Assembly (NCBI GenBank): GCA_964016885.1
Contig: OZ024762.1
Coordinates: 17,236,001 to 17,300,000, forward strand
Direction of reading: 5' to 3'
Length of the DNA: 64,000 nucleotides
From: Eledone cirrhosa
Lineage: Eukaryota
Below the pieces are notes generated by a model. It had not been told where the DNA came from, made no database searches, and saw nothing but the letters and a program-made list of their open reading frames with translations. This document shows, one piece after another, positions 16,805-30,231 of this stretch (positions are counted from its first letter, which is position 1; every line of letters starts with the position of its first letter). Both the position numbers and the translations under genes were made by a program.

Positions 16805-16859
16805 ACTGCCTGAAGAGGTCACAGCCAAAGATGGCTGTCACCGAAATATATATAGCAGT
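16805..16859 (+). ncRNA. Minimal type-I hammerhead ribozyme (intact)
   Basis: ACTGC-CTGAAGA-GGTCACAGCCA AAGA TGGCTGTCACC-GAAA-TATATA-TA-GCAGT; all three stems pair. Confidence 0.85.
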
Positions 16860-17171
16860 AATAAACGAAGCCAAATTTTAAACATTTGACTTATTTATTT
16901 TATTTTATTTTATTTTATATATATATATATATATATATATATATATATATAAATAAATTAACGAGAATCGGAACTTCGGCCCACGAAATAACGAAAAACA
17001 ATCTTCGAAATGTGCGGCAAAGTGCTCAATGGTTCGGATGAACCAGAGCTATAACTAACGTTTAATACCAACACACTGAGACGATGCTTAAACAATCATT
17101 CGCACAGCCAAAAAATTCGATCAATTAATTCGGGTCAAACAAATAAAAATATATATGATATATATATATAA

Positions 17172-17620
17172 AAGCTCAACCTTTATTCTCGCCAACGTCC
17201 CCGTGAGCGCTACATTATCTGCATGATGTGGAAAATATTCTATAAGCTTTTCCCAAATCCTGTTTCTATCACATTTAATGTACACCCAAGGCTTGGGCCC
17301 CGTGCGATCCGCCCTCGACAAAAATCTCACTCGCATCTCATAACAACAATACGGCACAATTATTTCACCTCAGTTGGCCCTGCTCTCTTTAACATTACAC
17401 CAAAACACATTAAAACGGAAACAGATCCCATCAAGTTCAAGAAGTCTTTGGACAAATTCCTTAAAGAAATCCCGGATATGCCTCCGTAAACAATAACTCT
17501 CTGCTCGAGTGGGCCATGGTGCCCAAATCGTTATTTGAAAGACTTCGCCAGGTGGTGCTATTAAGTTAGACATGGCCTGGGCCAATACTGGCCGAAACCT
17601 ATCAAAGTTATCAAAGTTAT
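17172..17620 (+). mobile_element. 3' end of CR1/L2-group LINE
   Basis: KLNLYSRQRPRERYIICMMWKI...GPALFNITP...FKKSLDKFLKEIPD is a typical ORF2 C-terminus. 3' tail TATCAAAGT x2. The same motif ends the 49.7-51 kb LINE. Confidence 0.8.
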
Positions 17621-18111
17621 ATATATATATATATATATATATATATATATATATATTAATAAAAGGAATTCCAACTTTGTCTGATTTACTCGTTTTATTT
17701 ACAATCCTTTAAAATAATTATAATGGTATTATAATGAAATAGTATGGTAGAATATTAAATGTTAAGTGTTAATTGAACAAGTACTTTGATGCTTTCGCAA
17801 TCTTCAGGTTCATATTCTGTGGTGACAGTCAAGTTTGCAATTTTATGGAAGTTCAGTAAAATCGAAGTTCTGACTGTGGCCAAGCTAACGATATACAATC
17901 ATGAATGTGTAGGAAAGTACTCGATAAGGTAGTGTCACCTTAGAGTAATAACATATGTTAGAGAGCTTGACAAATTGAAGACTGCCACCTGTGAGCCACC
18001 CACATGAACCAAAGCAACGAGAAAACCAACTTTATATATATATATATATATATATATATATATATATATATATAATATAAGATCAAAAGATGGTTAAAGG
18101 AGTTCCATGTA

Positions 18112-18178
18112 TTTTATTATGCGCATTTCAAAAACAAACATCATCATGCAATAATATTTGTGTTTTCATCAGATAAAA
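18112..18178 (-). ncRNA. Minimal hammerhead ribozyme (inverted arm)
   Basis: Reverse complement of 18298-18364. Confidence 0.8.
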
Positions 18179-18297
18179 CAGGAGAACATGATATGAAGGC
18201 TAAAAAACACTTGTGGATAGTGCAGTTTTAAATAAACATGCAGTTTTAAACTGCACTATCCACAAGTGTTTTTTAGCCTTCATATCATGTTCTCCTG

Positions 18298-18364
18298 TTT
18301 TATCTGATGAAAACACAAATATTATTGCATGATGATGTTTGTTTTTGAAATGCGCATAATAAAA
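18298..18364 (+). ncRNA. Minimal hammerhead ribozyme
   Basis: TTTTAT-CTGATGA-long stem II-GAAA-TGCGCA-TA-ATAAAA (palindrome ATGCGCAT). Confidence 0.85.
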
Positions 18365-26574: not shown

Positions 26575-27133
26575 GATCTGTCAACTCTCCCCGCCCGACA
26601 GGGACATCTCCCACCCACTTTCAGGTGGGTGAGATATGTCTTCTCTTGTGAAAATGGGCATAGCTTTCATTATGTAAAATCTCTCCATTTTGCCTCATTT
26701 CTCCCCGTTTTGAGGCACTTTTCTTTTTATGATACTCCCCGTTTGGGTTTTTAGAGGTTGGCAGGTTTATATATATATATATATATATATATATATATAT
26801 ATATATATATATATATATACGAGGGCAATCCCAAAAGTAAGGTCTCCTTCCGATATTGCAACTTTTCCGTTAAAATCCTGTGGATGGAGCTTCGGGAAAC
26901 CTCAGGAACCAAAATGCAGAGAGCATCCAGAGGGATCCGCCAATCTTTACGCATGTTTTCCTCGGAAGGAGACCTTACTTTTGGGATTGCCCTCGTATAT
27001 ATATATATATATATATATATATATATATATATGTATATATCAGACCTGTCAACTCTCCCCGTCCGATGGGGAGATCTCCCACCCACTTTTTTTCATGGTA
27101 CTCCCCGTTTCGGATTTTAGAGGTTGACAGATC
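26575..27133. mobile_element. Two MITE copies (CTGTCAAC..GTTG(G/A)CAG termini) flanking a (TA)n/mariner insert
   Basis: Copies at 26575-26765 and 27041-27133; third copy at 59507-59712. Confidence 0.6.
26820..26995 (-). mobile_element. Internally deleted mariner element
   Basis: Perfect 34-bp TIRs CGAGGGCAATCCCAAAAGTAAGGTCTCCTTCCGA, TA flanks, residual transposase-like peptide VSRSSIHRILTEKLQYRK on minus. Confidence 0.85.
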
Positions 27134-27714
27134 TAGTTCTTTCATCTTTTCGAAGTCGATGAAAAAAAAAGAAGAAAAGTACCAGTCTTGTACCCGGGAT
27201 CGATTCTTCTTCTACATCTCTTTCTCACTTCCTCTCCATCACTCACTCTCTCTCTCTCTCTCCCTCTCTCTCTCTCCCTCTCGCCCTCTCTCTCAGACGT
27301 GGGGAGGAGATGTGTTCCACCAGAACTTATACTTTAATGTATGGGACGTATTTTTCATCTATCTCCTTATTCCCTAAACGTTAATTTAGGGGTCAGGAAT
27401 ATACAACAATACTAACAACAACAACAGCAACATTAACAACAGTAACAACTACAAAAACTACAGCAACATTAACAACAACAACAGCAACAACAATAGTAAT
27501 AACAACAATAACACACAAAAACTATATTAACAACAGCAATAACAACATCAACAACATCAACAACAACTGCAAATACATTAATAAGGATTTCTACTATACG
27601 CACCAGGCCAGCAATTTGTGGGTGAGGAGGGGCAAAGTCGATTATATGACCCCAGTGCATTACTGGTACTTTATTTTATCGACGACACCGTAAGGATGAA
27701 AGGCAAAGCTAAAA

Positions 27715-28170
27715 TATATCTTAACATCCTGTAATGATTTAGCAGAAATTATCTAAAACTAGATTTGTTAATTCAAATATTTATATCTTTACTAGTGGAC
27801 AGATTGTTGTGAAAATATGTAGTAATATCTCTTAAGATCCTGTAATGATTTAGCAGGAAATATCTAAAATCTAGGTTTGTTAGTTCAAATGTTTCTAGTA
27901 TCTTTACTAATGGACAGATTGTTGTGAAAATATGTAGTTTTATCTCTTAAGATCCTGTAATGATTTAGCAGAAAATATTTAAAATCTAGGTCTGTTAATT
28001 GAAATGTTTATAGCATCTTTACTTGTGGACAGATTGCTGTGAAAATATGTAGTTTTATCTCTTAACATCCTGTAATGACTTAGCAGGAAATATCTAAAAT
28101 CTAGGTCTGTTAATTGAAATGTTTATAGCATCTTTACTGGTGGACAGATTGTTGTGAAAATATGTAGTAT
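27715..28170. repeat. ~120-bp tandem repeat, 4 copies
   Basis: TCTTAA(C/G)ATCCTGTAATGA..TGGACAGATTG(T/C)TGTGAAAATATGTAG repeated. Confidence 0.9.
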
Positions 28171-30024
28171 TAGAGTAAAGGCTTTAGTTTTTCGTGTGAT
28201 GCAGCCATAGTTCTGTTTTGTAAGTTTCAAGAATATTTTTCTAATGAGGTGTCATGTGGTACAGGACGTTAAAATTAAAGTCTCTTTCATTTTTTCTTTC
28301 TCCTACTCTACAGAAATGTAGGGCGGCGCTAAGAGACGGAGTCGTCAGATTGTCATGACGGCGGGGTTATTTTTTATTGGTTTGTTAAGGAGCAATAAGT
28401 TCTCGTTTGATGAGAAGAGGGGAGTCCAGCCAGTACTTTGTTTTGGGTCCCAAGAACTAAGAAAGCCCCACAGCAACCATGAAACCTCCATTTTGAGAAA
28501 AATCTTTGCCTACTTCAAGCCCCAAAGTGGTTTTATATCTCCTTGCAAAATTTCTCTTGGCGGCCATGATGAAAAACATCAGTTAAGTAGAGAAAGAGGG
28601 TCTCAATCACTAACAATCGCTAACAATCATTCACAATCATGAAAAAAGAAAATTTGAAAAAGGCAACAACAAAAACGAAACAATCCATGCAGATTGCTAA
28701 AGGGAGATAATAGAGTGAAACATTAATAAAGGGAGATAATAGAAAGAGTGCGAGTGCGACTCGTGAAGGAAAACTAGGAAATTGTCTAAGAAATAACTAT
28801 ACACCATATATGGAGCTTTAAGATGAGAATGGATGTTGCAAGACAAATGTGTGTGTGTGTGTGTGTAGAGAGAGAGAGGTAGATAGAAAGAAATGTTTGT
28901 GTATATATATATATACACATTTACATCTCTCTCTATATATATATATAGATGTGTATGTGTATATATATATTTATATTCATATATATATAAATGAGTATAT
29001 ATACAGTATATGTACTTTTGTGTGTGTATATATATATATATGAGTATATATACAGTATATGTACTTTTGTATGTATATATATATATATGAGTATATATAC
29101 AGTATATGTACTTTTGAATGTATATATATATAAATGAGTATATATATCTATCTATCTATATATATATGTATATATATATAAATGAACATATATGTGTGTG
29201 TGTGTTAGGTTGAAATAAATGGACGCAAACTTAAAAGAATAAAAGAGAAGGCTAAGTGGAAGATTACAGGAAAAAGTATATTAAAAAAAAGAATGTATGA
29301 AGAGGTCGACATTGACATAAGGTAGAAACTGTCCGAAGTTTCGGTGCTTTTGACAATAAATCACAACAGTGAAGAACACGATAAAAAAAATGGCAAATCC
29401 AAAAAAAAAAAAAAAAAAACTTACACTAGAGTTCTTTTTTCTCAAATTATTCAGAAATCAGGGCGACTCTATAAATTTAAAAACGGGGCAAACCGCCCAC
29501 TTGAAAACATGATGAGAATGTTGGTTAGTGGAAATGTAAGAGAGATGAGTGGAAAGGAGGCTTGATGGTGAATAAATAAAAATAAAAAGATTTTATAGAA
29601 GTGTAAGGAAATGACATTTAGAAAATAACTGTGAAAACAATCGACTGCTGAAAATGATCGTAGCATGGAGCAGTGAGTCCCCCAAAGAGGGTCCCGTGGA
29701 ACCCAAGGGATCTGCAAAGGAATGTTTGGGGTTCTGTAAAAAGACACATACCGACAGGTACATATATATATATATATATATATATATATATATATATATA
29801 TATATATATATATATGTATATATGTATGTATATGTTTATATATATATATATATATTTATTTATATACACACACACACACACACACACACACACACATATA
29901 TATATATATATATATATATATATATATATGTGTGTGTGTGTGTGTGTGTATATATATATATATAAATATATATATACACATACAAAGTGTTAAAACGATC
30001 AAATTTTAGTTTAGAACATTTATT

Positions 30025-30071
30025 TGCTGACAATTGTTTCTTCCAGAGGGAAGTCTGGAATCATCGGAGCA
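30025..30071 (-). ncRNA. Hammerhead motif with U4C core change
   Basis: Minus: TGCT-CCGATGA-TTCCAGA CTTCCC TCTGGAA-GAAA-CAATTG-TC-AGCA. Confidence 0.65.
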
Positions 30072-30187
30072 TATGGAATGTCGAAACATGTGACTAAAAT
30101 CCTAGTCATTTAGAACATTTGGGGTACATAATTGTTGTTAAGAGAGAACACCTGCCTGTAAATGTGTTCTCTCAAGCGGTGGGAGGG

Positions 30188-30231
30188 ACCGTCCTGACGA
30201 AGGCCAGTTAAGCCTGAAATGCATAGACGGT
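30188..30231 (+). ncRNA. Minimal type-I hammerhead ribozyme (intact, compact)
   Basis: ACCGTC-CTGACGA-AGGC CAGTTAA GCCT-GAAA-TGCA-TA-GACGGT; predicted cleavage after 30225. Confidence 0.85.

What the first reader, a model, noticed from the sequence alone, without database searches (positions are those of the whole stretch)
16805..30231. Palindromic stem III loops imply dimeric self-cleavage
Seen: stem III has only 1-3 bp and is usually a palindrome: ACATGT (964), ATATATAT (16805, 19808), ATGCGCAT (18298), AGTACT (16488), ATGCAT (30188), ACAATTGT (30025), ACCGGT (43965), ACGATCGT (55769). Established: minimal hammerheads with weak palindromic stem III cleave efficiently as double hammerheads from tandem copies. 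Inference: the source RNAs are tandem or circular multimers. Family D (47680, 60021) has a non-palindromic stem III (ACC-NNN-GGT) and may work as a monomer.
Basis: partly seen in the sequence, partly recalled or inferred. Interest (0 to 1): 0.7.

Follow-up and report, generated by a model that had tools for sequence, protein, structure and literature searches.

The report
Penelope-type hammerhead ribozyme end fragments

Summary
All 11 listed motifs are type I hammerheads. A scan that ignored stem III content found 18 motifs, against 0.57 per shuffle (maximum 3 in 150). In 15 of 18 the stem III strand is self-complementary (12 Watson-Crick, 3 with G-U). Monomer stem III is predicted to be nearly absent in 16 of 18. 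Two corrections: the 964 strand is ACATGTGT, and 60021 (ACCACTGGT) is a palindrome with one central mismatch. The dimer reading is published for Penelope-like element (PLE) hammerheads, but with low activity. The 'tandem or circular source' is not shown: no intact motif lies in a tandem array, and close same-family pairs are inverted. All 5 family C pairs have one short arm (43-54 nt past the cut site) and one long arm (132-150 nt), both ending on (TA)n. This fits the PLE 'tail' signature and templates that were uncleaved or re-joined. No PLE ORF is in the window and no RNA could be tested. The scan reported the same kind of motif in seven earlier findings on other genomes. Verdict: real but ordinary.

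The parts
16488..16526 (+). Type I hammerhead, lineage A, stem III strand AGTACT, cut site after 16521; element continues about 120 nt to (TA)n
16805..16859 (+). Type I hammerhead, lineage B, stem III strand ATATATAT, cut site after 16854
   Evidence: fold z -3.15
17655..17844 (-). Second lineage A copy (96% identical), broken at G12 of the GAAA box; palindrome kept
18110..18180 (-). Type I hammerhead, lineage C (distant subfamily), ATGCGCAT; short arm, 43 nt to (TA)n
18296..18366 (+). Type I hammerhead, inverted partner of 18110-18180 (arms 99% complementary); long arm, 132 nt to (TA)n
18650..18690 (-). Loop-less minimal hammerhead (stem III strand ACGT) with only about 2 bp of stem I; below the scan threshold
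18939..19060 (+). Third lineage A copy, beginning inside stem III; no core
19619..19682 (-). Type I hammerhead, lineage C, ATATATAT; long arm, 137 nt to (TA)n
19808..19865 (+). Type I hammerhead, inverted partner of 19619-19682, ATATATAT; short arm, 52 nt to (TA)n
23251..23310 (-). Type I hammerhead, lineage C single copy, ATACATAT (palindrome broken in the middle); long 3' end, 151 nt
30025..30071 (-). Type I hammerhead, lineage E, C4 core variant, ACAATTGT; 52 nt to (TA)n; high-copy family
30141..30172 (.). Locus-specific junction with a 10-bp hairpin between the head-to-head E and F arms; read depth falls to near zero
30187..30232 (+). Type I hammerhead, lineage F, canonical proportions (stem I 7 bp, stem II 4 bp), ATGCAT, cut site after 30225; 163 nt to (TA)n; high-copy family
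964..1037 (+). Type I hammerhead, stem III strand ACATGTGT (G-U palindrome)
1632..1692 (+). Type I hammerhead, lineage C, ATGTATAT; long arm 144 nt, with an inverted half copy (short arm 48 nt, cut site 1545)
7236..7271 (-). Loop-less minimal hammerhead (ACGT); lowest-scoring hit, could be chance
31690..31751 (+). Type I hammerhead, lineage C, ATATATAT; short arm 54 nt, inverted partner with broken core (long arm 150 nt, cut site 31389)
43965..44002 (+). Type I hammerhead, lineage G, U3-A8 core, ACCGGT; short arm 75 nt, inverted half copy with a 140-nt arm; further decayed copies near 1388 and 31085
44599..44664 (-). Type I hammerhead, lineage C, ATATGTAT; short arm 50 nt, inverted half copy (long arm 142 nt, cut site 44735)
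47677..47749 (-). Type I hammerhead, lineage D, ACCTTTGGT (3 bp plus 3-nt loop)
55769..55815 (+). Relative of lineage E, core with U3 and C4 (likely decayed), ACGATCGT
60018..60077 (-). Type I hammerhead, lineage D, ACCACTGGT (palindrome with one central mismatch)

Best explanation
The motifs are type I hammerhead sequences with short, mostly palindromic stem III strands, likely left as 5'-truncated end-pieces of several Penelope-like element (PLE) families, and in the parent elements they are predicted to cut only when two same-family copies pair through that palindrome. Shown here: the motifs, the palindrome excess, two fixed 3' ends per family, (TA)n flanks, inverted pairs and high copy number for two families. 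Inferred: the element's reverse transcriptase and endonuclease nicked (TA)n targets, started copying at one of two sites about 50 and about 140 nt past the cut site on RNA that was uncut or re-joined there, read through the ribozyme and stopped soon after. Priming on both DNA strands gave the head-to-head short and long arms. The pairing partner in a live element would most likely be the second terminal repeat of a partial-tandem transcript. The window copies are likely dead remnants without a close same-strand partner.
For: 18 motifs against 0.57 per shuffle; 15 of 18 self-complementary. The product of length-matched background rates is 2.9e-10 for 9 even-length lineages, about 5e-9 after merging E with 55773 (related). 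In lineage C, 43 of 44 stem III cells pair across 11 copies, and two pairs change on both sides (ATATATAT to ATGCGCAT, one event). Lineage E has ACAATTGT against ACGATCGT at 55773; a loose end in 101 reads of run X9 shows six letters of the same variant. Monomer closing-pair probability is at most 0.018 in 16 of 18. All 5 lineage C inverted pairs have one 43-54-nt and one 132-150-nt arm ending on (TA)n; G (75 vs 140), J (17-19 vs 97-99) and K (36-43 vs 133-139) show the same split. A (TA)5 run lies within 186 nt downstream of 18 of 18 motifs, against 51% of random positions within 200 nt. 2,768 contigs of run X1 lay on the two families at 29985-30385. Literature: palindromic helix III, U3-A8 variant, mostly single copies and opposite-strand pairs 100-700 bp apart (PMC4209133); inverted 5'-truncated copy and tail (PMC8557442); two internal start sites make the tail, AT-rich targets, uncut RNA is the main template (PMC11167929).
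Against: No PLE reverse transcriptase or GIY-YIG domain in 282 of 336 six-frame pieces scanned; the only RT is a LINE-type fragment at 49681-50570. No genome is held, so no family was linked to a PLE ORF. The arm difference in lineage C is about 80-100 nt, longer than the 30-40 bp tail in the papers. The covariation score for lineage C does not beat relatedness (22 of 500 shuffles). Lineage F has canonical proportions and could be a retrozyme monomer. Rfam finds no hammerhead at gathering score or among the 150 of 196 rows shown at E up to 5 for 15800-32000. Cleavage was not tested.
Confidence: 0.8

Rival explanations
1. Some families, F above all, are non-LTR retrozymes: short tandem units expressed as circular RNAs, with the window holding dispersed monomers.
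For: F has stem I 7 bp, stem II 4 bp, stem III 1 bp plus a palindromic loop, the canonical layout of PMC4209133. It is high-copy, and other copies continue upstream with sequence complementary to its downstream part (loose end before 30173, 56 contigs). Mussel and coral retrozymes make circRNAs (PMC7229834). Retrozymes derive from PLE terminal repeats and have dispersed monomers (10.64898/2026.07.22.740005). An intact cut site with flanks on both sides fits a re-joined circle.
Against: No intact motif in any of 122 tandem-repeat rows (period up to 500). No end-to-start joint among laid contigs; the one go-back joint (30382 to 30250, one contig-level row, depth 8) is not at the cut site. The laid stretch may be shorter than a unit, so this is weak. 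Coral and mussel retrozymes cleaved as single genomic copies (PMC7229834), so this reading does not need dimers.
Confidence: 0.12
2. The palindrome is kept mainly as an RNA-RNA linkage that joins two separate element RNAs in trans inside the reverse transcriptase complex; cleavage is secondary.
For: Inverted two-arm insertions are the norm. The E/F pair at 29985-30385 joins two unrelated families head-to-head between two (TA)n runs, with a locus-specific junction, which suggests two RNAs in one event. The anole PLE protein is predicted to be a dimer, extends both strands, and ribozyme-dead RNA still inserts (PMC11167929).
Against: E and F palindromes are incompatible (lengths differ, stem I swap 0-1 bp), so that pair did not need the linkage. 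It is one case and may be two successive insertions. The catalytic core is exact in 15 of 18 motifs, which points to selection for cleavage. Several duplexes are weak (-2 to -3 kcal/mol).
Confidence: 0.06
3. The palindromes are a by-product of the (AT)n-rich sequence and inverted duplications, not of selection for dimers.
For: ATATATAT is trivially palindromic and occurs in 4 of 18 motifs; 6% of background 8-nt strands are palindromes.
Against: Most lineages have G+C-containing palindromes (AGTACT, ATGCAT, ACCGGT, ACAATTGT, ATGCGCAT), and the excess holds against the window's own background.
Confidence: 0.02

Closest known systems
Minimal and short-helix-III type I hammerheads in the pseudo-LTRs of metazoan Penelope-like elements (Cervera and De la Pena 2014, PMC4209133; Lunse et al., seen only as cited in PMC6765202 and PMC6466107)
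   Same: Type I topology, palindromic stem III, U3-A8 variant, many unrelated families in one genome, mostly single copies or opposite-strand pairs a few hundred bases apart
   Different: Most stem III strands here are 6-8 nt rather than loop-less; no PLE ORF is attached in this window; lineage E appears to carry C4 family-wide
PLE insertion structure: inverted 5'-truncated copy plus tail (PMC8557442); Poseidon of Anolis, two internal RT start sites (PMC11167929)
   Same: Head-to-head arms, two fixed 3' ends per family downstream of the ribozyme, AT-rich targets, intact ribozyme in the copies
   Different: Tail about 65-100 nt here against 30-40 bp; no element ORF start could be found in or after the motif
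Non-LTR retrozymes (PMC7229834; 10.64898/2026.07.22.740005)
   Same: Type I hammerhead in a non-coding high-copy repeat; lineage F has canonical proportions
   Different: No tandem units in the window; circular RNA untested
Double hammerheads of avocado sunblotch viroid and newt satellite (as described in PMC6466107 and PMC3088659)
   Same: Stem III of 1-3 bp that is extended in a dimer; the 3-bp minus-strand form of the viroid works as a monomer, as proposed for family D
   Different: Genomic dispersed DNA copies, with no evidence of a replicating RNA

Membership tests
PLE-type type I hammerhead | Core CUGANGA, GAAA and UH with stems I and II | tested here: met
   15 of 18 exact cores; 3 variants (U3-A8; C4; U3 plus C4)
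PLE-type type I hammerhead | Short, palindromic stem III strand | tested here: met
   15 of 18 self-complementary, 1 with a single central mismatch, 2 not
PLE-type type I hammerhead | Self-cleavage that depends on a second copy | not testable with these tools
   Only folding energies; no assay
Penelope-like element remnant | Inverted 5'-truncated pair with a tail (two 3' ends) | tested here: met
   5 of 5 lineage C pairs, and lineage G; tail longer than published
Penelope-like element remnant | AT-rich or (TA)n target | tested here: met
   18 of 18 within 186 nt of (TA)5, background 51% within 200 nt
Penelope-like element remnant | Link to an ORF with PLE reverse transcriptase and GIY-YIG endonuclease | tested here: inconclusive
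   None in 282 of 336 pieces scanned; copies are too short to reach it and no genome is held
Non-LTR retrozyme | At least two head-to-tail units, each with a hammerhead | tested here: not met
   Window only; other loci of the genome unseen
Non-LTR retrozyme | Expressed as circular RNA | not testable with these tools
   No RNA run could be laid
Monomer-competent hammerhead (family D) | Stem III forms within one molecule | tested here: inconclusive
   Closing-pair probability 0.38-0.40; competing dimer duplex -5.1 and -8.2 kcal/mol

The most novel reading that the evidence does not exclude
The palindromic stem III is a dimer linkage that couples two separate element RNAs inside the Penelope reverse transcriptase complex, so each target strand is primed on its own RNA. 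That would explain the one-short-one-long inverted arms, and the cross-family E/F pair would be a fossil of a two-RNA insertion. Ribozyme dimers would then form in trans, without tandem or circular RNA. A search for this idea (Penelope-like, hammerhead, dimerization, template switch) listed two papers, neither on it by title and abstract start.
Probability: 0.08. Interest if true: 0.6.

Novelty: new member of a known kind. Interest (0 to 1): 0.2.

Why it matters
Little as it stands: palindromic stem III and dimer cleavage of PLE hammerheads have been in print since 2014. The window does show about nine lineages in 64 kb with natural palindrome substitutions and a clean two-end tail pattern. 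That makes it a convenient source of constructs for the still-open question of what the ribozyme does for PLEs, since cleavage was dispensable for insertion in the one element tested in vitro.

Tried and rejected
Rfam: 0 hits at gathering score over the window; only microsatellite noise in the 150 of 196 rows shown at E up to 5 for 15800-32000. Whole genome: none held. Pfam on 282 of 336 six-frame pieces of 45 aa or more: no PLE domain; only RVT_1 at 49681-50570, whose YADD motif reads as a LINE RT (label recalled), unrelated to the motifs. Sequencing runs for 29985-30385: no RNA holder listed. Read ends in run X9 at 30002, 30032 and 30133 lie at AATT sites of a RAD-seq DNA library, so they were rejected as cleavage ends. 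Long stem III scan (11-40 nt): no complete motif with core and stem I; a strict-core type III scan gave none; type II was not scanned. ATG-started frames at the motifs: 4 of 15 motifs have one of 20 codons or more; the 72-codon frame at 30219 was rejected because other copies carry 2- and 4-nt deletions in it. 40061 and 13743 look-alikes rejected on inspection (no valid core, G at the cut position). Lunse et al. is not held and is cited second-hand. Supplements were not read: those of the bioRxiv preprint are closed, and those of PMC4209133 and PMC13282606 (listed) may name such families. Same-strand lineage C pairs exist at 1.5, 1.5, 3.6 and 5.1 kb (stem I swap 5-8 bp, stem III 6-7 of 8 pairs); they are separate insertions, so they were not counted as tandems, though a long read-through RNA could carry both.
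Full report
Setting. The window is AT-rich, microsatellite-laden animal-type DNA. No genome is held for it. Rfam finds nothing at gathering score. Pfam finds no PLE domain in 282 of 336 six-frame pieces, only a LINE-type RT fragment at 49681-50570.

Observation. All 11 coordinates carry type I hammerhead motifs. In 150 block-wise dinucleotide shuffles it finds 0.57 on average, at most 3. Twelve strands are Watson-Crick palindromes, three are palindromes with G-U, one has a single central mismatch (60070) and two are not palindromic (23302, 47742). 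In the shuffles 8.3% of 85 hits were palindromic. The window's own background, which keeps the (AT)n bias, gives 27%, 9.6% and 6.2% for 4, 6 and 8 nt. The motifs group into about nine lineages; the product of background rates over the eight even-length lineages is about 5e-9 (2.9e-10, before E and 55773 were merged). Deep common ancestry makes this figure optimistic. At 964 the true strand is ACATGTGT.

Selection on the palindrome. In 11 lineage C copies, 43 of 44 stem III cells pair when read as an antiparallel dimer; two pairs change on both sides, all from one event (ATGCGCAT). The covariation score alone is not beyond relatedness (22 of 500 shuffles). Lineage E varies between ACAATTGT and ACGATCGT (55773; related), and a loose end in 101 reads of run X9, possibly from one locus, shows six letters of the second form. 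Among the 40 best-supported of 111 differences in the laid records, none falls in either stem III strand.

Folding. ViennaRNA gives the stem III closing pair a monomer probability of at most 0.018 in 16 of 18 motifs and 0.38-0.40 in the two family D motifs. Self-duplexes of the strand range from +1.0 to -10.5 kcal/mol; D gives -5.1 and -8.2. These energies ignore the ribozyme's tertiary contacts.

Arrangement. No intact motif lies in a tandem array (122 rows, period up to 500). Close same-family pairs are inverted, so they cannot both be sense on one RNA. Close same-strand neighbours are of different lineages and cannot swap stem I (0-4 bp). The nearest same-strand lineage C pairs are 1.5 kb or more apart and are separate insertions. 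All 5 lineage C pairs have one arm ending 43-54 nt and one ending 132-150 nt past the cut site, each on (TA)n; lineage G and the coreless families J and K show the same split. All 18 motifs have (TA)5 within 186 nt downstream, against 51% of random positions within 200 nt.

Other data. For 29985-30385, 11 runs were listed and 4 laid at 80% likeness. Both families are high-copy (2,768 contigs in X1, 1,721 reads in X9). Each continues into its own upstream sequence in other copies, and depth drops to near zero at the junction. No joint lies at a cut site or joins end to start. The stretch may be shorter than a repeat unit, so this is weak evidence on tandems.

Literature, with what I saw. PMC4209133 (parts 1-2 of 4: abstract to start of methods): PLE minimal hammerheads, palindromic helix III, U3-A8, mostly single or opposite-strand pairs, no monomer activity and low dimer and trimer activity. 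PMC6765202, PMC6466107, PMC3088659 (passages): the dimer model, 'very low' rates even as dimers, a 3-bp viroid stem III active as a monomer, U4C. PMC7229834 (passages, results part 1 of 3, discussion): retrozyme tandems and circRNAs; coral and mussel copies cleave singly, axolotl better as dimers. 10.64898/2026.07.22.740005 (parts 1-3 of 5): retrozymes defined by two or more tandem units, derived from PLE repeats; 1 of 9 dimers cleaved. PMC8557442 and its preprint (passages): inverted truncated copy and 30-40-bp tail. PMC11167929 (parts 1-2 of 4): two internal RT start sites make the tail; AT-rich targets; ribozyme mutants still insert; cleavage needs the protein; no RNA-seq reads end at the cut site. 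PMC13282606 (passages): Penelope-like families are present in an octopus genome, with no mention of ribozymes in the main text; whether this window is from that organism was not determined. Lunse et al. was not held.

Mechanism. Shown: motifs, palindrome excess, two 3' ends, (TA)n flanks, inverted pairs, high copy number for two families. Inferred: these are 5'-truncated PLE end-pieces, copied from RNA that was uncut or re-joined at the ribozyme; in live elements the palindrome would let two terminal-repeat copies fold a double hammerhead, probably slowly and with protein help. It works like the viroid and newt double hammerhead. It meets the tested sequence features of PLE hammerheads and PLE insertion structure; the ORF link is inconclusive; it fails the tandem test for retrozymes within the window.

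Verdict. Observation confirmed with small corrections; interpretation partly supported. New member of a known kind. The scan's notes list seven similar findings on other genomes (unchecked AI notes, not used as support), none for this sequence or place and none for the two-arm wording. Interest 0.2. The boldest open reading, a trans RNA linkage inside the RT complex, rests on one cross-family pair and has about 8% probability.

Noticed in passing
window 29985-30385: Two unrelated high-copy hammerhead families (E minus, F plus) sit head-to-head between two (TA)n runs with a 32-nt locus-specific hairpin junction; possibly one insertion from two different RNAs.
   Followed up: partly
window 6847-6973, 14456-14495, 32078-32272, 43086-43283, 45456-45640, 51196-51320: Family J: inverted short (17-19 nt) and long (97-99 nt) arms ending on (TA)n, starting near GAA plus a 5-6-bp hairpin. 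It may be the 3' half of a long-stem-III, monomer-type hammerhead; no copy keeps a core.
   Followed up: partly
window 15301-15463, 42137-42368, 48210-48470: Family K: same two-arm layout; a small hairpin, GAAA and a 5-7-bp hairpin, cut off within what may be the core.
   Followed up: partly
window 31883 and 40802 (+): Family H half motifs with the palindromic strand ACGCGCGT and no core.
   Followed up: partly
window about 57480-57520 (-): A further U3-A8 motif with ACCGGT and a decayed stem I, missed by the scan.
   Followed up: partly
window 30066: The C4 core variant of lineage E seems family-wide: no change at this place among the 40 best-supported of 111 differences in laid records. PMC3088659 notes that U4C lowers activity in vitro.
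   Followed up: partly
window 49681-50950 and about 17200-17612: Broken LINE-type reverse transcriptase (RVT_1, E 1.4e-12) and what looks like a LINE 3' end with a short tandem tail (the latter by eye).
   Followed up: partly
window 21139-21911, 27715-28172, 34355-36002, 37871-38461: Minisatellites of 35, 115 and 72 nt; none contains a hammerhead motif.
   Followed up: no
window 21987-22610, 24764-24920, 27572-27712: A dispersed SINE-like repeat that resembles octopus repeats by recall; the organism was not determined.
   Followed up: no
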